Assembly (NCBI RefSeq): GCF_006345805.1
Contig: NW_021835065.1
Span: 1 to 44,386 of the forward strand
Origin: Octopus sinensis
Taxonomy: Eukaryota
Reading direction: 5' to 3'
DNA: 44,386 nt
The number at the start of each line of letters is the position of its first letter. The stretch's first letter is position 1. This document shows, piece by piece, positions 4,729 through 38,488 of this stretch. Below the pieces are notes generated by a model, which saw only the letters and a list, made by a program, of their open reading frames with translations, had not been told where the DNA came from and ran no database searches. Position numbers and translations under genes: made by a program.

Positions 4729-5140
4729 GTGATGATGGTGATGATGATGGTGATGATGGTGATGATGATGATGATATGATGATGATGATGATGATGATGA
4801 TGGTGATGGTGATGATGATGGTGATGATGGTGATGATGATGATGATGGTGATGATGGTGATGATGGTGATGATGATGATGATATGATGATGATGATGATG
4901 ATGATGGTGATGGTGATGATGATGACGATGATGACGATGATGATGATGATGATGTGATGATGTGATGATGGTGATGATGATGATGATGATGATGATGATG
5001 TGATGGTGATGATGTGATGGTGGTGATGGTGATGATGATGGGGATGATGATGATGATGATGATGATGGCGGTGGTGATGATGATGATTATGATGATAATG
5101 ATGCTGCTGCTGCTGCTGGTGATTATGAGGATGATGATGT
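4293..5140. repeat. (GAT/GAC)n trinucleotide tract
   Basis: Long GATGATGAT run with GAC/GGT variants. Confidence 0.95.
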
Positions 5141-5646
5141 TTGTAGTGATAGATTTGTTGTGATGGTAGTCATCGGGATATTATGATACAACAGTTTTAT
5201 TTATTTATATATTTATTTATTCTTCTTTATTTTATTACTTTATTGAAATAATATTTCGGAAAGAGATTCCTGTTTCAATAATTGAAGTAGAAAAAAGACA
5301 CAAAAACAAACAAACAAACAAACAAATAGTCAAACAAATATGTAGACAATAATGAAGGGGACACATCGATTTTAACTACTATCTTTATAGGCAGGAGACA
5401 AAATACTGGAATTTTGATATTATGTAAATATTCTCCGCCATCAACGGCTGCAGGGTCCTGCTGTCTACATTCTGTCGTTATGTTTGCAAAGCTTAAAAGA
5501 GAAGTAAGACAGTATTTTTTGTTATCGGGCTCTGCATACACGAATATATTTATGTTATGTATATATTAGAGATATAAATATATATTTCGTAAATATAACG
5601 GGAATATTTCTCCGCGCAAGAATTTCTTTTTGCAAAGGATGTAGGT

Positions 5647-6130
5647 ATGATGTATGTATGTATGTATGTATGTATGTATGTATGTATGTATGTATGTATG
5701 TATGCATGCATGTATGTATGTATGTATGTGTATGTATGTAGGTATGTATGTATGTATGTATGTATGTATGTATGCAAGTATGTACGTATGAATACATGTA
5801 TGTATATACGTAGGTATGTATATATATTATATTATAGATATACAAATATTTATGTATATATGTGTATATACATATGTATATATGTATATACATAGGTGTA
5901 TATGTGTATGTATGTATATATATATATATGTGTGTGTGTGTAGACGTATATATAGATAAATATATTTATGCATATATGCATGTGTGAGTATATAGTATAT
6001 ATGCATATATATATATGTATATATATATATACATACATATATATATATATATGTATATATATATATGTATATATATGTATATGTATGTATGTGTGTATGT
6101 ATGTATGTATGTATGTATGTATGTATGTAT
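5647..6130. repeat. (TATG)n/(TA)n microsatellite complex
   Basis: Direct reading. Confidence 0.95.
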
Positions 6131-6522
6131 ACAGTAAACACGCTACACATACAAGCGTTTTTTAATCCTTCTGCCGAGAGGAAATGTATCTGTACACAAT
6201 TCAAGCAGAAATACCGGATGATGCTTTTAAAGAAGAATTAAGGACGCGTCAATGTAATAGATAACATAGTTTTGCCAACAAAGGCTCCCGTTACATAATA
6301 CGCATGTATTGCATAAGAAACGTTGTAACGAGTTAATGTTAGACAATACTGGTATGTACTCCGATTTTCAGACAGTAAATTTGTGATATTTATAATCGTC
6401 TTTCTACTTAGCTATTAACCTTGATATCGCTCAAAACATACACAGAGTAAGACAGAGGGGAAGGGAGAGAGGGGGCAGAGACAGACAGACCAACAGACAG
6501 ACCGATTGACAGATAGAAAGAG

Positions 6523-6524
<2 letters not shown>

Positions 6525-6569
<45 letters not shown>

Positions 6570-6657
6570 CAGAGAGGGAGATACAGAGGAATACACACAC
6601 ATACATATATATGTATATACATACGTCTATATATATTTCTTGCTGTATATCCGTTCC

Positions 6658-6723
<66 letters not shown>

Positions 6724-6896
6724 CATCCATCCATCCATCTATCTATACACGATCCCTATTGATCGCCTTTTTCCCTTTTTACGATCCCTTTTGAGTGAAA
6801 ACCTACCCCACATTTTTTCTCCCCAAAAAGAAAAGCTCTACTTTGTAATTTATCCCGTCTGTGTTCCGCCCTGTGTGGCTAATAAAGAAACGTATG

Positions 6897-6979
<83 letters not shown>

Positions 6980-6980
6980 T
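6525..6980. repeat. (GA)n plus two (TCTA)n microsatellites
   Basis: Direct reading; explains the 326-aa SIYL ORF. Confidence 0.9.
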
Positions 6981-7328
6981 TGTCTGTCTATATGTGTGTA
7001 TGTGTCTATGCATGTATGTGTCTATGCATGTATGTGTGTATGTTTGTATATAAGTATATGTATGTATTCGTTATTAACGAGGGAACAAGTATTTGGCCAA
7101 ATTGGGCACAAAATTTTGTATACCATTCCGCAGTGCAGGATTTCAATATTATATCTGCGTTAATTATGATATACAGAATGCTAATGCTCACACATATGTC
7201 TATACATATGCACACGCCCTTATATATATGTATGTATGTATGTATACACCTGCTTGTTGTTTATACACCTGTCTTTTCTTTTTCTGTCAATCTCAAATAT
7301 ATATTACATACATACATACATGCATATA

Positions 7329-7384
<56 letters not shown>

Positions 7385-7495
7385 ATACATAATATATATA
7401 ACGGGAAGCTTTATGAAAATAACAAAAGACGAAGGCAGGTTGAATACAAACAAACAATTGTATTAGTATGGCGCTCAGGAATATAAATAAAACAA

Positions 7496-7533
7496 GTTTT
7501 TACGTTTCGAGCCTACGCTCTTCAACAGAAAGA
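7496..7533 (-). ncRNA. Degenerate minimal hammerhead-like motif
   Basis: Minus strand TCTTT CTGTTGA A GAGC-GTAG-GCTC GAAA CG TA AAAAC; core A6 reads U and stem I is only 3 bp. Confidence 0.35.
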
Positions 7534-7669
7534 TACACAGAAAAGAAACACGGAGAGAAACAAGGAGAGAGAAAAATGCGTGCAGAAGCTAGCGAATCAA
7601 CATGGCGATCTGATTCCGGCCATATATATATATATGTGTGTGTATATATATATATATATATATACACCC

Positions 7670-7885
7670 TTTTACTCTCTTTTACTTGTTTCAGTGATTT
7701 GACTGCGGCCATGCTGGAGCAACGCCTTTAATCGAGCAAATCAACCCCAGGACTTATTCTTTGTAAACCTAGTACTTATTCCATTGGTATCTTTTGCCGA
7801 ACCGCTAGGTTACGGGGACGTAAACATATCACCATCGGTTCTCAAGCGATGTTGTGGGGTGGGACAAACACAGACACGCAAACAT
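7670..7885 (-). mobile_element. SINE family A, 3' half
   Basis: Near-identical to the 3' half of the adjacent full copy. Confidence 0.9.
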
Positions 7886-7912
7886 ATACACACAACACAT
7901 ACATACTCTCTC

Positions 7913-8330
7913 TCTTTACTCTTTACTCTTTTACTTGTTTCAGTCATTTGACTGCGGCCATGCTGGAGCACCGCCTTTAGTCGATCAAATCGACCCCGGG
8001 ACTTATTCTTTGTAAGCCCAGTACTTATTCTATCGGTCTCTTTTGCCGAACCGCTAAGTGACGGGGACGTAAACACACCAGCATCGGTTGTCAAGCAATG
8101 CTAGGGGGACAAACATAGACACATAACCCCCCCCACACACACACACATATATATATATACATATATACGACAGGCTTCTTTCAGTTTCCGTCTACCAAAT
8201 CCACTCACAAGGCTTTGGTCGGCCCGGGGCTATAGCAGAAGACACTTGCCCAGCATGCCACGCAGTGGGACTGAACCCGGAACCATGTGGTTGGTAAACA
8301 AGCTACTTACCACACAGCCACTCCTGCGCC
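7913..8330 (-). mobile_element. tRNA-derived SINE family A, full length
   Basis: Head GGCGCAGGAGTGGCTGTGTGG (box A)...GGTTCAGTCCC (box B), TGGGCAAGTGTCTT CORE-like motif, internal (TA)n(TG)n, tail ending in (GAGTAAAA)n. Confidence 0.92.
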
Positions 8331-8419
8331 TATATGTATATATATATATACATGTATATATATATATATATAATATACATGTATATATATATATACATGT
8401 ATATATATATATACATATA

Positions 8420-8553
8420 TACGACGGGCTTCTTTTAATTTCCGTCTACCAAATCCACTAACAAGTGTTTGGTCGGCTCGAGGCTATATTAGAAGACAGT
8501 GGGAATGAACCCGCAACCATGTGGTTGGTAAGCAATCTACTTACCACACAGCC
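8420..8553 (-). mobile_element. SINE family A, 5' part with internal deletion
   Basis: Similarity to 8165-8330. Confidence 0.8.
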
Positions 8554-8604
8554 AATATATATATATAATATATATTTATTAATATATATATATATTATAT
8601 ATTA

Positions 8605-8637
<33 letters not shown>

Positions 8638-8913
8638 TATATATATATTATATATATATATTATATATATATGCATATTATATATACACACACATATATA
8701 TATATACATATATACATATACATATACATATATATATAATATACATATATATACATATATATACATATAATACATATATATTCATATACATATACATATA
8801 TATACGTATATATACATACATATATATATATATATTATATATATATAATATATATATATATATTATATATATATATATATATATAGGAAAAAAGCAACAA
8901 GAATGGATTAAAA

Positions 8914-9001
8914 TCTCGGTACGATCGTTTCGTACGAGGACATCTTTAATAAGCTACAAAAAATGCAGTGAATACAGATGGCTCGTACTCGTCAGCCGAA
9001 A
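8914..9001 (-). ncRNA. Type I hammerhead ribozyme (left-arm copy)
   Basis: Reverse complement of the motif at 9601-9688, with all core nucleotides intact. Confidence 0.85.
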
Positions 9002-9600
9002 AAATATCAGAGAAATCCCAAACATCAAAAGGGGTAGATATAAAAGAGGTTGTAGGATTAACTGCATTGAAGCAAGTTCGATTCATGGAGATCCGATGAA
9101 AGGTTTTAAACCTATAGAATTTGTGCATGTCTACATATAGTTCATATTGGATATTTGATCAAGTTATATGAAGAAAATTTTCGGATACAGTCATGCAAAA
9201 TTTCTGAAAATCCGAGTGAGAGGCAAAGTGACTGCCACATCATGTAGAGGAAAGTCTGAGTAAAAACATAGTGACTGTCATGTCGTGTAGAAGAATGTTA
9301 TTGTTATTCTTCTACACGATATGACAGTCATTTTGCTTTTACTCAGACTTTCCTCTACATGATGTGGCAGTCACTTTGCCTCTCACTCGGATTTTCAGAA
9401 ATTTTGCATGACTGTATCCGAAAATTTTCTTCATATAACTTGATCAAATATCCAATATGAACTATATGTAGACATGCACAAATTCTGTAAGTTTAAAACC
9501 TTTCATCAGATCTCCATGAATCGAACTTTCTTCAATGCAGTTAATCCTACAACCTCTTTTATATCTACCCCTTTTGATGTTTGGGAATTCTCTGATATTT

Positions 9601-9688
9601 TTTCGGCTGACGAGTACGAGCCATCTGTATTCACTGCATTTTTTGTAGCTTATTAAAGATGTCCTCGTACGAAACGATCGTACCGAGA
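9601..9688 (+). ncRNA. Type I hammerhead ribozyme
   Basis: Stem I TTTCGG/CCGAGA; CTGACGA 9607-9613; stem II GTACGAG/CTCGTAC, extended by CATCT/AGATG; GAAA 9671-9674; palindromic stem III ACGATCGT; GUA cleavage after 9682. Confidence 0.88.
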
Positions 9689-9851
9689 TTTTAATCCATC
9701 TTGTTGCTTTTTTCCTATTTATAATCACCCCACTTGTCGTATGGCTACCCCATATAGATATCCGGTGCATCCTGGTTAAGGACCATATTCATGTGAATTC
9801 TTTAGAATTCACTAGAATCTCAACTTACTTAACGTAATATTATATATATTA

Positions 9852-9882
<31 letters not shown>

Positions 9883-10507
9883 ATATGTATGTATGTATGT
9901 AGTATACACGGAATGGCAACCCATCCGGCATCTCACATAGCCATATAACATTTGGGAACACGATTCGACGACAGCGTATTAATACGATAAGAAATGAAAT
10001 AAAAACCTTAGTTGCTCTCTTTATGTATAGTCATAATTTCTATGTTTGTCACATTACGAAATATTATGATAGTAATATCTGAGCTCATATACTTAATTTG
10101 GTGATCCAAGAGACCTAAACGATAATAACCAGTACTAAATATTATGGACAATACTAACCGTTATCGACTCTCAATGGTCATTCCACCTATTAAATCAATT
10201 TTACTGCCGTCACTACAAATGACTACCGTTGTCAGCATTAAGCGTTAAACTCACCAATAGTGTCTAGTATAGCTACTAATACTAAGCTAGTAATACTAAT
10301 ACTAATACTAATACGAAAGTTATAAATATTCTTTCTAAAGGAATCTAGAATAGCAGAATATATTTTGCAGTACAGATCCGTTATATATACATACATAGAC
10401 AAACACACATACACACACACATAGACACACACAAAACATATATCTGTATATATATAGAGATATATGTATATATATATATAGAGTTTGTATGTATATATAT
10501 ATATAGA

Positions 10508-11173
10508 GTTTGGCATGTATGTATAATGCCGTCTGGCATGTATGTATAATGCCCTCTATATATAAATTAATATGTTCAATAAGAAATAATTATTTTCGAA
10601 ATTTTTTCTCTTATGAGGTTTTTACGCTATCTACCTGACAATTTCTTGTTAAGTTTTCCTTATTAAGTAGTTGTCCTTATTGCTAAATTTTTATTCCGAA
10701 AAAACTTTTCCTCTCCCGAAATGCAATTCGTAAAAGTTTGCCATTCACCCGGATGTAATATATATAAACTCACCCATGTGCTTCGTTGATGTTGATCAGT
10801 TAGCTGATCGGCTTAAGCGGGGGGCAGGGTCGTTGTATTTATAATACATTCAGGCCTGCTGATGATTACGTAAGTATGAAATCACTGTGATACAGGTCTA
10901 TATTTTTAATGTCTTACTTTGAAAAAATTGCATTCGGTGGGATTAGTAATATTTTGGGTAGAAATGACTGATTGTCCCTCTTAGCGTTTGGCATGTATGT
11001 ATATGCCGTCTGGCATGTATGTATAATGCCTCATCTATATATAATTAATATGTTCAATAAGAAATAATTATTTTCGAAATTTTTTCTCTTATGAGGTTTT
11101 TACGCTATCTACCTGACAATTTCTTGTTAAGTTTTCCTTATTAAGTAGTTGTCCTTAATTGCTAAATTTTTAT
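10508..11173 (+). mobile_element. 1.4-mer tandem of a 478-bp HHR-containing unit (retrozyme/PLE-like)
   Basis: Direct repeat 10508-10694 = 10986-11173; HHR lies in the single-copy middle; flanked by (TA)n. Confidence 0.75.
10852..10899 (+). ncRNA. Type I hammerhead ribozyme
   Basis: Stem I AGGCCTG/CAGGTCT; CTGATGA 10859-10865; stem II TTAC-GTAA-GTAT (first pair U.U); GAAA 10878-10881; stem III ATCAC-T-GTGAT; AUA cleavage after 10892. Confidence 0.8.
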
Positions 11174-11564
11174 ATATATATACATATATAGTATATTACA
11201 TCATAAACATATATACATGTATAAATATTGTATATATATATACACACACATATATTATATATATATATATACATGCATATACATACATATATATATATAT
11301 ATATAATATATATATATACATATATAGTATATTACATTATATAACATACATATACATGTATAAATATATATATATGCATATATATTTATATATATACATA
11401 TTCATATATATATGTATACATATATATATATACATATACATGTATACATATATATATATACATGTATAAATATGTATATATATATATACATATACATACA
11501 TACATACATATATATATATATATGTATATATAATGTAGATATGTGTGTACGTATATGTGTGTGC

Positions 11565-11715
11565 GCATGTGATGGAATCTCCCGCCGAATCTGACGTCCA
11601 GTGCTCAGCTTTTTGCCAAACGATCTGCACAAAGGATCCGTTTATAGTGATCAAATGCTCACTCAATCAAACGGACGTTGCCTGCACAGTTGCACTTGTG
11701 TGTCACACGTCATAT
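11565..11715 (-). mobile_element. Diverged 3' part of the CORE-like SINE seen at 29891-30196
   Basis: Shared TGCA.CTGT.CAGGCAACGTC...GAGTGAGC...ATTTGA.C.CTATAAA...TTTGTGCAG and GGGAG..TCCATCA end. Confidence 0.55.
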
Positions 11716-12032
11716 GCCGACGCAGAGTTGCAGAAAATTTATGGTGAGGAGTGTATGAGCCGCAAACGAGTGTACGAGTGGTTCAGAATTTTCCAAGATG
11801 GTCGAAAAAATGTCGACATTGACAAGCGTTCTGGAGCACCCACTGCGAAAGATATCGCAGATGTGGGTTCAGCTGTGAGGGGAAACGGTCGAATCACCAT
11901 TCGTGAGTTCTACTGGAGATTTGAGTATGAGACGGTGTGTCTACCAGGCTTGCGCCAAAACTGCTTTCAGCTGACCAAAAAGACACTTGTGTTTCAGCAG
12001 CACAACATCTCCTTGATTGTGTCGAGAACAAT
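11716..12032 (+). mobile_element. Mariner transposase pseudogene fragment (HTH region)
   Basis: AELQKIYGEECMSRKRVYEWFRIFQDGRKNVDIDKRSGAP...VRGNGRITIRE matches the mariner N-terminal HTH and linker; frameshifted downstream. Confidence 0.85.
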
Positions 12033-12033
12033 A

Positions 12034-12443
12034 CTCTTTTACTCTTTTACTCTTTTACTTGTTTCAGTCATTTGACTGCGGCCATGCTGGAGCACCGCCT
12101 TCTAGTCGAGTAAATCGACCCCCAGGACTTATTCTTTGTAAGCCTAGTACTTATTCTATCAGTCTCTTTTGCTGAACCGCTAAGTTACGGGATGTAAACA
12201 CACCACCATCGGTTGTCAAGCAATGGTGGGGGGACAAACACAGACACACACATATACATACATACACATATATATACATATATACGACGGGCTTCTTCTA
12301 GTTTCCGTCTACAAAATCCACTCACAAGGCTTTGGTCGGCCCGAGGCTATAGTAGAAGACACTTGCCCAAGGTGCCACACAGTGGGAATGAACCCGGAAC
12401 CATGTGGTTGGTAAGCAAGCTACTTACCACACAGCCACTCCTG
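12034..12443 (-). mobile_element. SINE family A, near full length
   Basis: Same head, body and tail as 7913-8330. Confidence 0.92.
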
Positions 12444-12711
12444 TGAAAACTTTTTAATAATTTTGCGGAGGCTCCTGAGCAGGTATCGTCAAGCTTTTGG
12501 CAAAATTTAATGCAGATCCTCTGTTCACCTTCCACTGTCATGGTCAACGCGACGATCACACGCTACACACCTTCTTTCCAAGCACTGTGCTAAACAGCAG
12601 AAGTGAATTAGAACGTCAAAACTTAGTGCAAGGTCAATCTGCGCTTTACTCTGCGTACCTTAGTTTCGTTACTATGGCAACAATCCGGATATTCATTGAT
12701 GAGACTACGTA
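12444..12711 (-). mobile_element. Mariner left end: TIR-like terminus and transposase N-terminus
   Basis: Minus-strand EQRICIKFCQKLDDTCSGASAKL; terminus TACGTAGTCTCATCAATGAATATCCGGA abutting TA. Confidence 0.75.
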
Positions 12712-13556
12712 TATGTATATGAATGTATTTATATATGTATACATACGTAAAATTAATATTTGTCTATATATACATATATATGATATATGCATATATGTAC
12801 ATATATACACATGCAAACACACACGCTCATACATATTTATAGATTTATGTATGTCTATATATATATATATATATACATATATATGCGTACGTCTCTCCTT
12901 CTCCCTCTCTCTCTCTCTGTATATATATACGTATATTTATATATATATATTTATATATATGTATGTATAATATAGATATATGTATGATATATATATATGT
13001 GTGTGTGTGTGTGTGTACACATACACACAAAAAGACATGCACATGTGTATCAACACACTCACACACACATACATATATACATACATACGTGCTGTTCGCC
13101 ATATTTTATCTTAATGATTTCATTCGGGAAGGGGGGCGGGTATTTGTATTTGGTTGGGGGTGGGAGTTATTTCTGAATGAATCAAATACAGACGTGACAT
13201 TGTTGAGACCATCAGGCATTATAGGTCTGCAAATAGTTGTTTATAGCAGACTGGGTCACTCAGACAGAATAAATGAAAATTTTTGTTTTACATTTCGCAC
13301 TACATGTCCTCTCACACGTACACACCACAACCAAGAGCCTCTACGTGATCATTTAACCTACTAGCAATAGCAAATAAATGGCCCTTTATCGAAACCAAAA
13401 GGCTGGGGGTTAATAAATGGAGCTTAACACAGTGTACTCTAGGCAAAACGAATAGACATCTTGGTTCTCTTTCAAACGATTTTAATCTTGCCTGCCAGAT
13501 AAATGTTGATATAATAAATGAAAATTACAGCAGAAATATTCATAATTATATATATA

Positions 13557-13719
13557 GGCGTAGGAGTCGCTGTGTGGTAAGCAGCTTGCTTACCAACAAC
13601 ATGGTTCCGGGTTCATCCCACTGCGTGGCATCAGGGCAAGTGTCTTCTACTATAGCCTCGGGTCGACCAAAGCCTTGCGAGTGGATTTGGTAGACGGAAA
13701 CTGAAAGAAGCCTGTCGTG

Positions 13720-13758
<39 letters not shown>

Positions 13759-13831
13759 ATGTGTGTGTATGTTTGTGTGTCTGTGTTTGTCCCCCCCCGC
13801 CCCTTCTAACATCGCTTGACAGCTGATGCTG
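13557..13831 (+). mobile_element. SINE family A, 3'-truncated
   Basis: Head plus body up to CATCGCTTGACA. Confidence 0.88.
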
Positions 13832-13931
13832 GAAGAAGGAGAAGAGGAAGAAGAAGAAGAATTCTCGTTGCATTCGAAAAAGGTGAATTTCTTGTAGTTG
13901 CAGTTGTCGCCGCCGCCGTCGTCTTTGTACC

Positions 13932-13949
13932 AGTGGTAGTAGTAGTAGT

Positions 13950-14006
<57 letters not shown>

Positions 14007-15973: not shown

Positions 15974-16632
15974 TAATATAATTTGGTTGCTATTTCTAGC
16001 CGGCCGAGCGACCACAAACAGGTTTACTTACCGTCTCGTCGCAAATGGTTTTAATACTCTCGCCGTTGTCGTGGATGTCTTGTTATTTTCACCGTTGTTG
16101 TTCGTGTTGTTATTACATATATTACTATAATATTGCTTCCAAGTCTGATTAATTAGATTCTCCTAATTAATTACAACATTGGATTCGACTTTTAACTAAT
16201 CTCACAGTTCCTGTATTCGCTTCAATTTCCTTATTAATTTAGCTGATTTGCAGTAAATATTATTTTCTCTTGTTTTCCTCCTCATCACTATTGTATGTTG
16301 TATTGTTGTTCTTTACCCTGTGTATCATTGTTTATAGTGTTATGTTTATATAATACGTGGAGCTTATATTCAAGTAACAAGCATAAAGACTAATGAAGAT
16401 TGGAATGGATTGGACACTTGTTTCGTATTAAAGGTTGCACAATAAGGTCCCTTGGCAACAGTCGTTTAATTCCGAAATTTGTTTTCTTCGTTCACGTCTT
16501 CCCTATCTCTGAACTGTATATCAGCGTGTATATCAGCGTGCTATTAAGTTAGACATGGCCTGGGCCGATACTGGCCAAAACCAAGTTCTAAGTATGTATG
16601 TATGTATGTATGTATGTATGTATGTATGTATG

Positions 16633-17100
16633 TATGTATGTATGTATGTATGCGTTGCGCATGAGAAAGTAAGGAGGGATGTCAGGAAGGGCATCGCTGT
16701 TACGCTTCCAGATGGGAAGGGTCTTCCTATGATGCTGACATGCAATGTCTGTGCAAGACCCTGCCTCAGTAAAGCTGGACTCAAGAGTCATCTTCGTAGT
16801 CATAAAGCGAGACAGATGAGTGACAACCTGGCCACTGGTGGTGGTGTAACACACCATACTAATCATATATGTCAGGCATTTGGAAAAGAGTGTAATTCGG
16901 CAGGACTTAAACGACATGCAAAGGTACATGAAGCCCAGTTACAACTACAGCCGGCTATTACCGGTAAAGGTTTTAGCTGCCAATTCTGTACAAGACATTG
17001 TAGATCTTTAGCTGGGCTAAAAAGTCACATTCGATCACAGCACCAGCAACAGTTAAGCTTCGTGCAATGGCCATACTCGATAACGAGGGGGCAGCCATCA
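16633..17100 (+). mobile_element. RTE-type LINE 3' end with three C2H2-like zinc fingers, inserted in (TATG)n
   Basis: CNVCARPCLSKAGLKSHLRSH, a degenerate CQAF..CNSAGLKRHAKVH and CQFCTRHCRSLAGLKSHIRSQH; tail CTCGATAACGAGGGGGCAGCCATCA(TGTA)n; no splice context. Confidence 0.7.
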
Positions 17101-17138
17101 TGTATGTATGTATGTATGTATGTATGTATGTATGTATG

Positions 17139-17169
<31 letters not shown>

Positions 17170-18675: not shown

Positions 18676-19005
18676 TTCGGATTGAATACGTATATGTATT
18701 TGTGAGCATATATATATACTAGGGCAAAAGAAAAAAATTCTAATGCCAAATATGCCGAAAATAGACAAATCGTCAATAACCATATAATTTATAACTATAA
18801 AGAATCTTTTTCGTTTGCCCTTGTTTATAAATTGTTTATAAAGTTAACCTTTAATGATTTTTTTAATATGCTGGCCATTAATGGAATTTTTTTCGAAAAA
18901 TTTTATTCGATGTTAGATATATATATATATCAATGTGTGTGTATTACACACAAACACACACACACACACACACACACCACACACACACACACACACACAC
19001 CACAC

Positions 19006-19036
<31 letters not shown>

Positions 19037-19037
<1 letters not shown>

Positions 19038-19768
19038 CACAAAAGGTGTTCGCCGGGAGCTACTGCACAAAGCCAGATTTCACGGGAGGGCTGCAATCAG
19101 AAAACCACTACTTTCAAACACAAACGTTGCAAAGCATTTAGAATGGAGTAAAAACCTAACGAATCGGTCCCTAGACCAATGTAAGAATGTTATTTTCTCG
19201 GACGAGTCATCCATTACCATATTTCCGACTATCCGGCCGACTATTCGTGTGGAGACATCCAAAAGAAGCATTTGACGCAGACTGTCTTCTTCCAACTGTT
19301 AAACATGGAGGAGGATCTCTGATGATGTGGGGATAGACAATATCTTGGAAATGCGCTGGCCCAATGGTTTCCCTTCATGGCAGAATTCATAGTCAAGACT
19401 ACTTAAACAATATATCTGATCAAATTCATCCTATGTTTGGGGAACATTTTACTGAATGGCCCAAGAAACCTTTTAGTGTAGTTGAACATCTTATCTAGCG
19501 ACCATAGTCCCCAGATCTCAATATTATTGAACAGTTATGGTGCATTTTAGAAAAACAAATAAGGAGTCGATATCCTCCACCAACATCAACACAAGAACTG
19601 TTTTAGCTGAAGAATGGATAAAAATTCTTTTGCAAACAATTCAAACTTTGTACGAGTCCATACCTCGTAGAATTCAAGCTGTAATTACTGCCAAAGGCGG
19701 TCCTACCGCTTATTAAAACAAATTTGTTTTAAGTTTTAAGGTGTTTCCATTATTTTGTCCAAGCCCTG
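19037..19768 (+). mobile_element. Tc1-family transposon, 5'-truncated transposase pseudogene with right TIR
   Basis: RKPLLS...LEW...VIFSDES; PTVKHGGGSLMMWG; SPDLNIIEQLW; SIPRRIQAVITAKGGPTAY*; ends ATTATTTTGTCCAAGCCCTG|TA. Confidence 0.92.
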
Positions 19769-22329: not shown

Positions 22330-23555
22330 ACGTAAAGACAGACGAAATACCTATTTCTTTACTGCACACAAGGGGTTACACACAGAGGGGACAAACAAGG
22401 ACAGACAAACGGATTAAGTCGATTATATCGACCCCAGTGCGTAACTGGTACTTATTTAATCGACCCCGAAAGGATGAAAGGCAAAGTCTACCTTGGCGGA
22501 ATTTGAACTCAGAATATAACAGCAGATGAAATACCGCAAAGCATGTCGCCCGGCGTGCTAATGTTTCTTATTTCTTTATTGCCCACGAGGGTCTAAACAT
22601 AGAGGGGACCAACAAGGACAGACAAACGGATTAAGTCGACCTCAGTGCGTAACTGGTACTTAATTTATCGACCCCGAAAGGATGAAAGGCAAAGTCTACC
22701 TTGGCGGAATTTGAACTCAGAATATAACAGCAGATGAAATACCGCAAAGCATGTCGCCCGGCGTGCTAATGTTTCTTATTTCTTTATTGCCCACGAGGGT
22801 CTAAACATAGAGGGGACCAACAAGGACAGACAAACGGATTAAGTCGACCTCAGTGCGTAACTGGTACTTAATTTATCGACCCCGAAAGGATGAAAGGCAA
22901 AGTCGACCTCGGCGGAATTTGAACTCAGAACATAACGGTAGACGAGATACCTATTTCTTTACTACCCACGAGAGTCTAAACACAGAGGAGACAAGCAAGG
23001 ACAGACAAACGGATTAAGTCGATTATATCGACCCCAGTGCGTAACTGGTACTTATTTAATCGAGCCTCAAAAGGATGAAAGGCAAAGGCGACCTCGGCGG
23101 AATTTGAACTCAGAACATAACGGCAGACGAAATACCTATTTCTTTACTAGCCACGAGGGGCTAAACACAGAGGAGACAAGCAAGGGCAGACAAACGGATT
23201 AAGTCGATTATATCGACCACAGTGCGTAACTGGTACTTATTTAATCGAGCCCCGAAAGGATGAAAGGCAAAGTCGACCTCGGCGGAATTTGAACTCAGAA
23301 CATAACGGCAGACGAAATACCTATTTCTTTACTAGCCACGAGGGGTTAAACACAGAGGAGACAAGCAAGGGCAGACAAACGGATTAAGTCGATTATATCG
23401 ACCACAGTGCGTAACTGGTACTTATTTAATCGAGCCCCGAAAGGATGAAAGGCAAAGTCGACCTCGGCGGAATTTGAACTCAGAACGTAGCAGCAGACGA
23501 AATATTGCTAAGCATTTCGCGCGGCGTGCTAACGTTTTTGCCAGTTCGCCACCTT
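22330..23555 (-). mobile_element. Head-to-tail array of six SINE family B units (about 185-209 bp)
   Basis: GAATTTGAACTCAG recurs near 22499, 22707, 22915, 23100, 23285 and 23470; a complete head is present only at the right end. Confidence 0.92.
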
Positions 23556-26000: not shown

Positions 26001-26465
26001 TGTTAGCATATATATAGTAGAACAGAATATAATTTATTATATTCACATAAGGATAGCTCTGTCTCAACTTCGTTCATGCAGGGTTTAGACAGGCAAATAA
26101 TTTTCTCTCTTGATTTTAAATAAATTTTATTATTTCTTTTCTCTGTATACACAGACAAAAGTAGTTGCCAAATTTTGGAGACACGGCTCCGAAAAGGATA
26201 TTGACTACGAACAAAATAACTCACTTCACAAATAGAAAAAGAAATGGCAGTAATTTAATTGCATAGCAACACATTAATGTTGAACAAACAGTGAGCGATA
26301 ATATTTTAACAGCCAAAAACGTCAGTTTGAATACAACGAGTGGAAATGTTGTCAACAACACCGATACATACGAACACTGTTTGCCAAACGGAAGCATTTC
26401 CACCATTTCTTCACATGGCAACGGCACAGTCACCAAAATGCTAAATATTATAGAATACTCAAATA

Positions 26466-27017
26466 TTGGGTTGTCCGGAAAGTTTGTGCCGATTTTTAAA
26501 GGAAAGAAAAAGGTCAATAAATACATGCCATTACATTTTTAATCAGCCAAATATGAACCATTTTGTTGCACAATGCGTCTCCATCTTTCCTTTAACTTGA
26601 AAATACCCTCTTCCCAGAATTGAGGTGGTTTCATGGCAAAGAATTCATCAAGGTATCTTTTTATGTCATCTAAGGAATTGAAATTTTTACTATTAAGACT
26701 ATTCTGCAGAGACCTGAATAAGTGGAAATTCTGGTGAATATGGAGGGTCGGGTAACACATCCCAGCCGAGCTGCAGCAATTTTTGTCTGGTTCCCAAAGC
26801 ATCAAGTGCCAAAAATGAACTTTCTTGTCTTCCATTTTAAAGAGTTACAGAATTAACACAGGTTATAAGAACATAAACCTTCTTCCACGAAAAGATAGCT
26901 CAAACTGTGCTCTCAATGGAGGTGTAGTCAAATCCTATTTTATGGACTCAAACATGTTCCAAAATAAGTCGAAAGTTAAGCTACTATCAATCGGCACGAA
27001 CTTTCTAGACAACCCAA
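26466..27017 (-). mobile_element. Internally deleted mariner element with both TIRs and TA TSD
   Basis: TIRs TTGGGTTGTCCGGAAAGTTTGTGCCGATT / AATCGGCACGAACTTTCTAGACAACCCAA; MEDKKVHFWHLMLWE fused to FHLFRSLQNSL...FWEEGIFKLKERWRRIVQQNGSY. Confidence 0.93.
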
Positions 27018-27392
27018 TATAAATTTTTGCCGTACAAAGAGGCAATGTGGACGAATAGTGTTTTGCACCACAGCTGCTGTCATAGCTAAAGGATGTGTCA
27101 TCGATAGCATGCTCTTGAACTTGCCGCGCATCTTTGTGGTTATAAGTCTATACAGGCTCATGCACAAACCAACAAGTGCCACCCGTATAAAAGCGTCGTT
27201 CAGGGCAGACTGCTTTCCTGCCTCGAGGTTGACAAAACAAGTACTAGTTGAGAATTGGGGTCAATGTAAATGCCATCCCTTTCTTCTGAAAATTGTTGGT
27301 CTAGGGTGGAAATTACGAAGAAAACAAAACACCAGATTCTCAATAAGTAAGAATTATTTCTCAGCAAAAGAAACGATGAAGGTAGGTTATGT

Positions 27393-27827
27393 CAGACATT
27401 TTATCACAGACTTATTTAGTGGCGGGATTCCGGTTTAAGCAACGCATATATTTTTTCATAGCTTTTTTTAATTTTTTGCAATTTTCAGTAAATTTTTGCG
27501 AATTTGTTCTTCACACGGGTTTTCATATGATTATGCAAAAAATTGTTTGATTGAAGAGCGATTTAGCTGTTGTTTTTAGCGCATCTCACGACCTTGTGTC
27601 TTTGTCACAGACATTTTATCACTAGACTTATTTAGTGGCGGTATTCTGGTTTAACCAACGCAAATATTTTTTCCTTACTTTTTTTTACTTTTTGCAATTT
27701 TCAGTAAATTTTTGCGAATTTGTTCTTCACACGGGAATTCATATGATAATGCAAAAAAAATTGTTTGATTTAAGAGCGATTTAGCTGTTGTTTTTAGCGC
27801 GTTTCACAACCTTGTTTCTTTGTCACT
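27393..27827. repeat. Tandem duplication of about 215 bp spanning a MITE left junction
   Basis: About 27393-27607 repeated at about 27608-27827. Confidence 0.88.
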
Positions 27828-28129
27828 TTAGCTAGTATTGGTGTTTTTCAATATTTTTCTCCCCATAAACACCTTCGCTGATCTATTGCTTGGAATTAAG
27901 ACAAAAATTTGGAATTTTCATATTTTTAAACTCTGATTTAAAAATAAATGCGAAAAACAGTGCAACTTTTAGGATTTATGGGGTGGATTGGGTTGGTTGG
28001 GACTTTAAAAAATAGCATAATCATATAAATTCTCGTGTGTAGAACACTAACTTGTAAGACTTATCTGAAAATTCTCCAAAATAAGAAAATTATGAGGAGT
28101 TTTATGAGTACTTAAACCAGAATCCTGCC
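27637..28129. mobile_element. MITE with GG...CC termini and 8-bp TSD (Merlin-like)
   Basis: TIR GGCGGTATTCTGGTTTAA / TTAAACCAGAATCCTGCC; flanks TATTTAGT / TATTTAGC. Confidence 0.75.
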
Positions 28130-28921: not shown

Positions 28922-29363
28922 GGATCTTTTCGGTTTGAACGGCAGTTTTTAACATAATTTCTAGGTAACTAAAAATTTTAAAATTACGTATACTGGTAGA
29001 ATATGTTTATAAAACATCTTTTTCTCTTGGCTTTATTGAGAAAATTTTATAGTTTGTAAGATATTTGTTGTTGTTTTTTCTTCAATTTCTACAATTTCAA
29101 CCAATCAGTGACGTGTATTGAGTTAAAAAGCATTCTGTGCCGTATGAATATGTCCTTCGTTTAAGAAACAGATTGGGTTTATTTACATTTGTAAAGAAAA
29201 AAGATACCCTTCCCCCACCCCTAACCTAACCCTAACTAACCCTAACTATTTATAACCCTAAAAGAGATTTTAAATGCTATAGATCGATTCTAGGGTCATA
29301 ATTATGGGTGACAATTTCATATGACACCACTAGAAAAAACTGCCGTTCAAACCGGAAAGATCC
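28922..29363. mobile_element. MITE with about 29-bp TIRs and perfect 8-bp TSD (Merlin-like)
   Basis: GGATCTTTTCGGTTTGAACGGCAGTTTTT / AAAAACTGCCGTTCAAACCGGAAAGATCC; TSD AGTTTTTC at 28914-28921 and 29364-29371; internal CCCTAA-like repeats. Confidence 0.88.
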
Positions 29364-32620: not shown

Positions 32621-32675
<55 letters not shown>

Positions 32676-33109
32676 ATAATCAAAATAAGCAACAAGTATA
32701 TCCAAGGTAGTGTAGTAGAATTGTTTCATGCTACTCATTCTATACCTCGGATATACTTGTTGCTTATTTTGATTATAATCACTCCATTTGATTCTATGGA
32801 TAATACCATACAAAATTCTGGTGCCTTTGACTTAAGTACCATATTCATCTGAATCTAAATTTTGCTGAACTTATATATATATATATATATTTATATATAT
32901 GAGTGCGTGTGTGTGTGTATGTGTGTGTAGATGTGGTTGTGCATGTAGGTATTACTATGGCAGGTTCACGAAAACATGGTCAAGCCACCAAGTATTCGGA
33001 ACTCAGAACAAGTTTAATCCTGAAGAGTGAAATCCCCCAAATATATTCTGTTGGAATCACTGCTATAGATTAGTGTATGGATATGTGTATATATAAATAT
33101 ACACACTCA

Positions 33110-35032: not shown

Positions 35033-35640
35033 GTTTCCTTATTTCTTTATTGCCCACAAGGGGCTAAACATAAAGGGGACAAACAAGGACAGGCAAAGGG
35101 ATTAAGTCGATTACAACGACCCCAGTGCGTAACTGGTACTTAATTTATCGACCCGGAAAGGATGAAAGGTAAAGTCGACCACGGCGGAATTTGAACTCAG
35201 AACGTAAAGACAGACGAAATACGCATTTCTTTACTACCCACAAGGGGCTAAACACAGAGAGGACAAACAAGGACAGACAAACGGATTAAGTCGATTACAT
35301 CGACCCCAGTGCGTAACTGGTACTTATTTAATCGGCCCCGCAAGGATGAAAGGCAAAGTCGACCTCGGCGGGATTTGAACTCAGAACGTAGCGGCATACG
35401 AAATACCTATTTCTTTACTACCCACAAGGGGCTAAACACAGAAAGGACAAACAAGGACAGACATAGGTATTAAGTCAATTACATCGACTCCAGTGCGTAA
35501 CTGGTACTTAATTTATCGACCCCGAAAGGATGAAAGGCAAAGTCGACCTCGGCGGAATTTGAACTCAGAACGTAACGGCAGACGAAATACCGTAAAGCAT
35601 TTCGCTCGGCGTGCTCACGTTTCTGCCAGGTCACCGCCTT
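35033..35640 (-). mobile_element. SINE family B trimer
   Basis: Three units of about 185 bp, with the head at the right end. Confidence 0.92.
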
Positions 35641-37972: not shown

Positions 37973-38014
37973 TATATATATATATACTTTATTTAAAGCA
38001 GCAGAAAATTCAAC

Positions 38015-38061
38015 AAAACCTGTTACTCTGAGTTTCCCGTTGCCGTTCATCGGACAGTTTT
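38015..38061 (-). ncRNA. Minimal hammerhead motif, left-arm copy (core CCGATGA)
   Basis: AAAACTGT CCGATGA ACG-GCAA-CGG GAAA CTC-A-GAG TA ACAGGTTTT. Confidence 0.55.
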
Positions 38062-38069
38062 TGCTAGAA

Positions 38070-38115
38070 AAAACCGTCTGATGAACGGCAACGGGAAACT
38101 CAGAGTAACAGTTTT
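38070..38115 (+). ncRNA. Minimal type I hammerhead motif
   Basis: AAAACCGT CTGATGA ACG-GCAA-CGG GAAA CTC-A-GAG TA ACAGTTTT; GUA site after 38107; first stem II pair is A.G. Confidence 0.72.
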
Positions 38116-38488
38116 GTTGAATTTTCTGCTGCTTTAAATAAAGCATATTACTCTACCACTGGTATTTGAGTACTCTTTTTTCCACCTTGTTTCATATTTA
38201 TGTGTTTATTCCGGTATATATATATATATATGTATATGTATTTGTGTATGTATATACATATATGTATGTGTGTGTGTAAGAATATTCCTATATATATGAA
38301 TGTGTGTAGTAATGGAAATAGATTTACAAACAAAAGGTGCGCTGAGCTGTGTGGGTGAGGCTAGAAAATGAGATGGGGGTAAGAACGCTTTAAACCAGAA
38401 CCCAATGAGCAGAGAAAAAACAAGAAGCACCACCCCATTCGTACCTCCATTTGTGTGTCTTTTCACACACACACACACACACTCTGCT

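What the first reader, a model, noticed from the sequence alone, without database searches (positions are those of the whole stretch)
8883..9718. 836-bp palindrome carrying two intact, outward-facing hammerhead ribozymes
Seen in sequence: arms of about 414 bp with a 9-nt loop. Each arm holds a complete type I HHR (CTGACGA, 7-bp stem II with a long insertion, GAAA, palindromic ACGATCGT stem III, GUA site), one per strand, so transcription from either direction makes one ribozyme plus its full antisense. The arms differ at scattered sites (e.g. GATCCGATG vs GATCTGATG, AAAAACATAG vs AAAAGCAAAA) while both HHRs are identical. Established: Penelope-like elements carry HHRs with palindromic stem III in their pseudo-LTRs and often leave inverted termini. 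Inference: an ORF-less PLE-derived foldback element. Its RNA would be a dsRNA hairpin of about 400 bp (potential ADAR or Dicer substrate) competing with ribozyme folding.
Basis: partly seen in the sequence, partly recalled or inferred. Interest (0 to 1): 0.8.

Follow-up and report, generated by a model that had tools for sequence, protein, structure and literature searches.

The report
Head-to-head Penelope element stump, two hammerheads
This DNA palindrome is real, but it is most likely the short leftover of one insertion of a very abundant Penelope-like jumping gene, a kind already known to land as two back-to-back copies of its ribozyme-bearing end, so it is an ordinary repeat copy and not a new device.

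Summary
Confirmed: arms 8883-9296 and 9306-9718 (10 differences), 9-nt loop, one identical type I hammerhead per arm. The element is longer than reported. A one-sided 118-nt tail runs to about 9836, and the whole 954 bp sits between (TA)n runs. Contigs of four runs (three organism labels) show a very high-copy family that ends at that tail and continues upstream of the centre. A 73%-identical relative at 32675 has 35-nt arms and the same tail. Another hammerhead family forms a third palindrome at 37982. So the mirror arm is most likely built at each insertion, and this is not a fixed foldback element. Opposite-strand hammerhead pairs 100-700 bp apart, inverted truncated copies, tails and (TA)n targets are all published for Penelope-like elements. 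This scan noted the same architecture before in other genomes. Not shown: the RT/GIY-YIG partner, transcription of this locus, cleavage, raw reads across the centre. One lead remains: 4 of the 10 arm differences are common family alleles, and in two copies the loop continues the tail-less arm, which hints at two templates per insertion.

The parts
8883..9296 (-). Tail-less, 5'-truncated copy of the element's 3' end (inverted arm)
   Evidence: alignment; abuts the (TA)n run 8820-8885
8914..9001 (-). Type I hammerhead motif, identical to the right copy; core starts at 8995
9296..9306 (.). Centre: 11 nt that are not the family's next bases in the right arm's sense. Eight of them match family sequence 5 nt beyond the break, read in the left arm's orientation; the stretch is also a 6-mer twice
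   Evidence: window sequence compared by eye with loose ends at 9295 (X2) and 9307 (X3)
9306..9718 (+). Direct, 5'-truncated copy of the element's 3' end
9307..9393 (+). Two degenerate tandem units of about 43-44 nt; other family copies appear to hold more
   Evidence: alignment; joint 9338-9307 and loose end at 9337 in X2
9601..9688 (+). Type I hammerhead motif: 6-bp stem I, 7-bp stem II with a 43-nt insert, 8-nt palindromic stem III, GUA site
9719..9836 (+). One-sided tail of 118 nt, part of the repeat family
   Evidence: covered in 4 of 4 runs; loose ends behind 9823 in 3 of 4 runs, running into TA repeats in X3 and X17; homologous tail at 32778-32871
8820..8885 (.). (TA)n run at the left end (likely target)
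9842..9886 (.). (TA)n run at the right end (likely target); no target-site duplication can be read
32675..32871 (+). Related insertion with the same layout: 35-nt arms (97%), a further 6-bp pair, a 15-nt loop holding a hammerhead 3' half, the same tail, (TA)n on both sides
   Evidence: 73% over 101 columns; score 97 against a maximum of 60 in 1937 random window pieces
37982..38214 (+). Second family, same layout: 83-84-nt arms (94%), hammerhead core at 38078 (left copy has a core change), tail of about 65 nt, TA runs on both sides

Best explanation
One insertion of a very high-copy Penelope-like retroelement (PLE) family into a (TA)n microsatellite, heavily 5'-truncated. Shown: two copies of the family's 3' end lie head to head; one carries the tail and one does not; the family goes on upstream of the centre; relatives in the window have the same layout with other arm lengths. 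From published PLE biology: a GIY-YIG endonuclease nicks AT-rich DNA, both strands can be extended, reverse transcription starts at two sites whose distance is the tail, and an inverted truncated copy is often left at the 5' end. Inferred: an RT/endonuclease supplied in trans made this insert, and the palindrome is a by-product of that reaction. The hammerhead is the family's ordinary dimer-type ribozyme, carried twice because it lies near the 3' end. The two copies here cannot work together in one RNA: read-through RNA buries the sense copy in a duplex of about 410 bp. The copy is probably a passive fossil; if a read-through transcript exists it would be double-stranded RNA, not an active ribozyme.
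For: Palindrome and motifs real and far above chance. Family abundant in 4 of 4 runs laid, three organism labels, four studies (546, 258, 116 and 50 contigs laid); it extends 27-49 nt or more upstream of 9307 in X3 and X6 and ends at TA repeats behind the tail. Two more head-to-head inserts with a one-sided tail and one direct partial tandem with a hammerhead lie in the window; 8 of 8 ends are at TA runs, which with 10-nt margins cover 7.5% of the window (the tail ends of the other three inserts were set partly by those runs). The tail-less arms of the two related copies end within about 10 nt of the same homologous place. Linked changes at 9676 and 9679 keep the stem III palindrome in all 4 runs (24/24, 6/5, 7/7 and 2/2 contigs). 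Modelled homodimer -58.8 kcal/mol with the 8-bp intermolecular stem III against -52.8 for two monomers. Literature: dual hammerheads 100-700 bp apart on opposite strands (PMC4209133); inverted truncated copy and one-sided tail (PMC8557442; PMC3846280); Hydra-clade PLEs nearly all listed as (TA)n-targeting, one with a hammerhead on each strand through its inverted copy; both strands extended and two start sites (PMC11167929).
Against: No RT or GIY-YIG ORF was found or linked: Pfam gave 0 families in 6 of 6 frames of the arm and tail and none relevant in 5001-14002 (low sensitivity). No whole genome was available. No contig bridged this centre. The tail is 118 nt against the 30-40 bp described. 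The stem II insert is 43 nt against loops of 3-10 nt in the 26 Hydra-sheet and Repbase rows of the published table. Both stem III changes are CpG-type transitions and may be one event. Absence of variation in the core is not significant by itself (probability 0.39-0.54 by chance). Motifs of this element were not found in the published Naiad/Hydra consensus file.
Confidence: 0.85

Rival explanations
1. A non-autonomous, retrozyme-like PLE derivative: the family has no ORF of its own, spreads from short (possibly circular) hammerhead RNAs and borrows a PLE enzyme. The insertion mechanism and the palindrome are the same as in the best explanation; only the parent differs, so this overlaps with it.
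For: No coding signal in the 530 nt available; the 5' part is a tandem unit of 43-44 nt; very high copy number; a neighbouring family forms a 1.4-unit direct tandem with a 478-bp period; animal retrozymes are proposed to derive from PLE ends (bioRxiv 10.64898/2026.07.22.740005).
Against: Retrozymes are described as head-to-tail tandems of 150-450 bp (PMC7229834); this copy is head to head, has a tail, and the family runs on upstream.
Confidence: 0.3
2. A foldback or MITE-like element that moves as the whole 836-bp palindrome.
For: Near-perfect long arms, no ORF, TA-rich ends.
Against: A one-sided tail belongs to the family; the family continues past the centre; none of 4 runs shows this centre, although a fixed centre should be a common family feature; a relative has 35-nt arms.
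Confidence: 0.05
3. An assembly or library fold-back artefact, or a real single arm doubled in assembly and polished with reads from paralogues.
For: No raw read or contig across the centre was seen; such structures trouble assemblies (PMC8557442); the left arm holds the family-majority or near-majority allele at 4 sites.
Against: 10 differences between the arms; symmetry stops at the element's end and the tail is one-sided; the centre holds family-derived filler; both arms keep alleles at 9384 and 9461 that are 0-2% in the runs, the second only 26 nt from a site that differs; two more inserts have the same layout.
Confidence: 0.06
4. A host-retained dsRNA source or ribozyme switch (ADAR or Dicer substrate; ribozyme locked by its antisense) kept for a function.
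For: Modelled read-through RNA is a duplex of about 410 bp (-743.9 kcal/mol) with stem II probability 0; PLE copies give small RNAs in a rotifer (PMC3846280).
Against: One of very many copies; no orthologous locus, host gene or transcript of this locus shown; identical hammerheads are unremarkable, since a 150-nt stretch elsewhere in the arms is also identical.
Confidence: 0.04

Closest known systems
Insertions of endonuclease-bearing PLEs with an inverted 5'-truncated copy and a one-sided tail (Craig et al. 2021, PMC8557442; Arkhipova et al. 2013, PMC3846280)
   Same: Head-to-head inverted copy, tail at one end only, 5' truncation, (TA)n target with no readable duplication.
   Different: No ORF is left between the arms, so the insert is a bare palindrome; the tail is 118 nt against 30-40 bp; the parent ORF is not identified.
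Metazoan PLE hammerheads with a long helix II and a small palindromic helix III (Cervera and de la Pena 2014, PMC4209133)
   Same: Type I, helix II 7 bp, short helix I, G10.1-C11.1, palindromic helix III; pairs on opposite strands 100-700 bp apart were already reported in Schistosoma (here 612 bp).
   Different: A 43-nt partly paired insert in helix II; no unpaired base between 9 and 10.1; not detected by Rfam.
Hydra-clade PLEs (Craig et al. 2021, supplementary files S1 and S2)
   Same: (TA)n preference in 26 of 27 listed families; canonical hammerheads with palindromic stem III; Penelope-13_HM carries an inverted copy with a hammerhead on each strand. The window's second family (38078) shares core, 4-bp stem I and stem III arms with Hydra-2_aMil (by eye).
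   Different: The main element's motif matches none of the listed ones; Neptune and Naiad clades also target (TA)n or microsatellites, so the clade cannot be assigned without the ORF.
Non-LTR retrozymes of animals (PMC7229834; bioRxiv 10.64898/2026.07.22.740005)
   Same: ORF-less, type I hammerhead, low GC, high copy number.
   Different: Retrozymes are direct tandems that give circular RNA; this is an inverted pair with a tail. The 478-bp tandem at 10504-11173 fits them better.

Membership tests
Type I hammerhead ribozyme | Conserved core CUGANGA, GAAA, NUH | tested here: met
   CUGACGA, GAAA, GUA in both arms
Type I hammerhead ribozyme | Three helices with open ends at helix I | tested here: met
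   6, 7 and 2 bp as monomer (8 bp as dimer); 0 of 200 shuffles give the strict form
Type I hammerhead ribozyme | Match to an Rfam hammerhead model | tested here: not met
   E up to 10; the 43-nt insert is the likely reason (inference)
Type I hammerhead ribozyme | Self-cleavage | not testable with these tools
   model only: monomer inactive fold favoured by 4.4 kcal/mol; dimer with intermolecular stem III favoured by 6 kcal/mol
Dimer-type PLE hammerhead | Short palindromic helix III kept across copies | tested here: met
   linked 9676/9679 changes keep the palindrome in 4 of 4 runs; both are CpG-type and perhaps one event
Dimer-type PLE hammerhead | Unpaired base between positions 9 and 10.1 | tested here: not met
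   stem II starts directly after the core; listed as a usual trait in PMC4209133, but absent in several rows of the Hydra table
Penelope-like element, endonuclease-bearing | ORF with telomerase-like RT and GIY-YIG endonuclease | tested here: inconclusive
   none in the arm, tail or 5001-14002; expected to be lost by truncation; upstream family sequence not retrievable
Penelope-like element, endonuclease-bearing | Hammerhead near the 3' end, in sense | tested here: met
   motif 150-235 nt before the tail end
Penelope-like element, endonuclease-bearing | Inverted 5'-truncated copy at the 5' end | tested here: met
   also at 32675 and 37982
Penelope-like element, endonuclease-bearing | Tail at one end only | tested here: met
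   9719-9836; longer than the 30-40 bp described
Penelope-like element, endonuclease-bearing | AT-rich or (TA)n target | tested here: met
   loose ends
Penelope-like element, endonuclease-bearing | Direct partial tandem (pLTR-ORF-pLTR) somewhere in the family | not testable with these tools
   no genome held
Foldback or MITE-like DNA element | Fixed centre and both termini shared among copies | tested here: not met
   family runs past the centre and has a one-sided tail; relative with another centre
Non-LTR retrozyme | Head-to-tail tandem of short hammerhead units | tested here: not met
   this copy is head to head; other family copies not testable

The most novel reading that the evidence does not exclude
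The palindrome records an insertion built from two templates. A tail-less cDNA primed at one target end folds back and copies itself, while a tailed cDNA primed at the other end from a second RNA supplies the outer part of the other arm. This would explain four things at once. The arms stop within about 15 nt of each other in all three palindromes. The loop continues the tail-less arm in 2 of 2 copies that have a loop. The inner 150 nt (9337-9486) are identical and share two alleles nearly absent from the family. The four family-type differences all lie in the outer part (9487-9698). If general, the many bare palindromes in such a genome would let the open question of how PLEs make inverted copies be tested by counting alone.
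Probability: 0.25. Interest if true: 0.55.

Novelty: new member of a known kind. Interest (0 to 1): 0.24.

Why it matters
As an object it matters little: opposite-strand hammerhead pairs in truncated Penelope-like elements were reported in 2014, and the scan has met the layout in other genomes. Two smaller points have value. First, the 43-nt insert in stem II hides this high-copy hammerhead family from Rfam, so ribozyme counts in such genomes are probably too low (inference). Second, how PLEs build the inverted copy is called unresolved in the papers read; arm haplotypes and loop orientation in these palindromes offer a test that needs only a genome assembly.

Tried and rejected
Whole genome: none held, so no genome-wide copy census and no ORF link. 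Rfam: no hammerhead match for the element or for the 38078 motif (only generic hairpin matches below gathering scores). Collection scans for the motif: viral contigs 0, metagenome contigs 0, viral contigs 1 with a shorter pattern, judged a chance match with no hammerhead around it. Pfam: 0 of 6 frames of the arm and tail; no RT or GIY-YIG in 6 frames of 5001-14002 or in 6 chosen ORFs of the 78 listed; that scan also missed a transposase-like frame I recognise by recall at 11539, so it is weak. Large protein searches were not run because no frame looked coding. Sequencing runs: no RNA holder listed as on record; X17 is only guessed to be RNA, so nothing is claimed about expression. An A-to-G difference at 9674 in one X17 contig (depth 8.4) is not taken as editing. 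No contig bridged the centre; contigs drop rare variants, so this is no evidence of absence. Summed depths are not copy numbers; their fall towards the centre is not used. Core conservation as proof of selection: rejected, not significant. An ORF start in the tail, as in the anole and rotifer elements: not found; the one open frame (9655-9838) has no start codon near its beginning and family indels at 9698 and 9746-9749 would shift it. Published consensus file of PMC8557442: 0 hits for 7 short motifs (line breaks could hide matches). Lunse et al. (PMC5785218) was not held and is known only through a review. Earlier scan notes by sequence or place: none. The host looks octopus-like from its interspersed repeats; that is recall and was not tested.

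Full report
Observation. The palindrome is as described. Arms 8883-9296 and 9306-9718 differ at 9 substitutions and one 1-nt indel around a 9-nt loop; it is the longest inverted repeat in the window. Each arm holds the same type I hammerhead motif, core at 9607 on + and 8995 on -, with a 6-bp stem I, a 7-bp stem II around a 43-nt insert, the 8-nt palindrome ACGAUCGU and a GUA site. A descriptor that asks for a palindromic stem III finds 4 motifs in the window, against 0.005 per window in 200 dinucleotide shuffles; the strict form that these two meet appeared in 0 of 200. Rfam does not see the motif.

The element is larger. The sequence after the right arm, 9719 to about 9836, is not unique flank. 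It is 73% identical over 101 columns to 32756-32854 (score 97 against a maximum of 60 in 1937 random window pieces). The whole 954 bp lies between (TA)n runs at 8820-8885 and 9842-9886.

The family. No genome was held. Of 24 runs listed, 20 hold part of the stretch, in 11 studies and 4 organism labels, none with half of the words. I laid contigs of 4 of them, from four studies and three labels, on 9262-9836: 546, 258, 116 and 50 contigs. Arm and tail are covered in all four. Loose ends behind 9823 appear in three runs and run into TA repeats in two, so the tail end is a family end. Contigs in X3 and X6 run 27 and 49 nt upstream of 9307 into sequence that is not the window's centre, so both arms are 5'-truncated pieces of something longer. 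No contig bridged this centre; contigs drop rare variants, so this neither supports nor refutes the locus.

Neighbours with the same layout. At 32675-32871 the relative has 35-nt arms, a 15-nt loop and the tail, between TA runs. At 37982-38214 a second family forms 83-84-nt arms with a hammerhead at 38078 and a tail of about 65 nt. At 10504-11173 a third family forms a direct partial tandem of 478-bp period with a hammerhead at 10859. All 8 ends of these four inserts lie at TA runs, which with margins cover 7.5% of the window; for three of the inserts the ends were partly defined by those runs. Arm length thus varies from 35 to 414 nt while the outer ends are fixed, as expected if the mirror arm is made during each insertion.

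The ribozyme. Changes at 9676 and 9679 occur together (24/24, 6/5, 7/7 and 2/2 contigs; 33-52% of summed depth) and turn one stem III palindrome into another. That fits a stem formed between two RNA molecules, but both changes are CpG-type and may be one event. No core position is listed as variable in the three runs not guessed to be RNA, which alone is not significant. In the model the active monomer is 4.4 kcal/mol above a fold in which the core pairs with stem III. The homodimer with an 8-bp intermolecular stem III scores -58.8 against -52.8 kcal/mol for two monomers (no concentration term). In a read-through RNA stem II has probability 0; in a sense-only RNA from the centre stem II forms (0.94-0.99) but stem I does not (0.01). 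Cleavage is untested; PLE hammerheads cleave weakly even as dimers.

Mechanism. Shown: the layout above. Established in the papers read: PLE insertions are 5'-truncated, often with an adjacent inverted truncated copy and a tail at one end (PMC8557442; PMC3846280); the purified anole element cuts AT-rich DNA, extends both strands and starts reverse transcription at two sites that delimit the tail, without needing ribozyme cleavage (PMC11167929). Inferred: such an enzyme, acting in trans or from a full-length parent, made this insert, and heavy truncation left only the two 3' ends. The RT/GIY-YIG ORF itself was not found, so the element works like an endonuclease-bearing PLE insertion, while strict membership and clade remain open.

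What is already known. PMC4209133 states that dual hammerheads lie about 100-700 bp apart on opposite strands in Schistosoma and are probably related to truncated PLEs; here the distance is 612 bp. The supplement of PMC8557442 lists (TA)n for 26 of 27 Hydra-clade families and one consensus with a hammerhead on each strand through its inverted copy. Earlier notes of this scan describe the same layout in other genomes; these are unchecked AI notes, and I took from one the word 'stump' and the pointer to PMC3846280. The verdict is a new member of a known kind. What differs is the long stem II insert and the long tail. This family's motifs were not found in that supplement, and seven literature searches listed no paper on it by title or abstract; Repbase and Dfam could not be searched.

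A lead on mechanism. Four of the 10 arm differences (9487, 9490, 9508 and the indel at 9698) are the two common states of the family; the left arm's state makes up 47-56%, 50-56%, 81-98% and 51-69% of summed depth in the three runs not guessed to be RNA. With 23 variable positions in 412 the chance of 4 or more of 10 is 0.0013. It is 0.010 if the linked pair counts once and 0.068 if the CpG site is also dropped. With 33 positions (adding 10 that I had left out because they pass 5% only in X17) these become 0.005, 0.028 and 0.13. Both arms share alleles at 9384 and 9461 that are 0-2% in the runs, within a 150-nt identical inner stretch. In the main element 8 nt of the centre match upstream family sequence in the left arm's orientation (by eye); in the relative the loop reads as the hammerhead's 3' half in the same, tail-less orientation. 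A plain fold-back of the tailed strand predicts the opposite orientation, and a plain fold-back of the tail-less strand cannot give the tail, so a two-template reaction is attractive. Against it: this is one locus plus one; a short ectopic gene conversion and a later asymmetric deletion at the centre explain the same data; four other differences cluster within 30 nt of the centre (probability 0.004), inside the part that should be a self-copy; both arms also share minority alleles at 9547 and 9561 in the outer part; and in X6 and X17 the 9487/9490 pair travels with a change at 9479 that the left arm lacks. I put it at 0.25.

Papers seen: PMC8557442 passages, supplement searches and part 2 of 59; PMC4209133 parts 1-2 of 4; PMC11167929 parts 1-2 of 4; PMC3846280 passages and Discussion; bioRxiv 10.64898/2026.07.22.740005 part 1 of 5; PMC7229834, PMC6765202, PMC8969392 and PMC13282606 passages; the supplement of PMC13282606 was listed, not read. 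Figures and the supplements of PMC4209133, which may show similar motifs, were not seen.

Verdict. Real, well explained by known Penelope-like element biology, probably a passive copy. Interest 0.24.

Noticed in passing
window 37982-38214: Second hammerhead-bearing head-to-head insert at TA runs; its stems I and III resemble the published Hydra-2_aMil motif (by eye). Left copy has a core change, right copy a stem I mismatch.
   Followed up: partly
window 10504-11173: Direct partial tandem (194-nt repeat, 96%, period 478) with a type I hammerhead at 10859 (odd-length palindromic stem III, AUA site), between TA runs; retrozyme-like or a PLE pLTR tandem.
   Followed up: partly
window 32675-32871: Diverged relative of the main element truncated inside the hammerhead; the loop holds the motif's 3' half with the stem III variant also seen in the family, less one base.
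   Followed up: yes
window 9320-9336 against 9266-9282: Four of the ten arm differences cluster within 30 nt of the centre; unexplained (error-prone fill-in, hairpin-tip damage or exchange between the 43-nt units).
   Followed up: partly
window 9674, run X17: One contig of a run guessed to be RNA has A-to-G at a core position not listed in the other three runs; could be editing or a paralogue; not interpretable.
   Followed up: no
window 16513-17169: Open frame with C2H2 zinc-finger-like matches between (TATG)n runs; probably the end of another retroelement.
   Followed up: no
window 26463-27020, 27421-28129 and 28922-29363: Short elements with terminal inverted repeats; the first holds a transposase-like fragment by recall. 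A Tc3-type transposase fragment lies at 18706-19275.
   Followed up: no
window 22352-23504 and 35040-35590: Tandem arrays of a 184-208-bp interspersed repeat unit.
   Followed up: no
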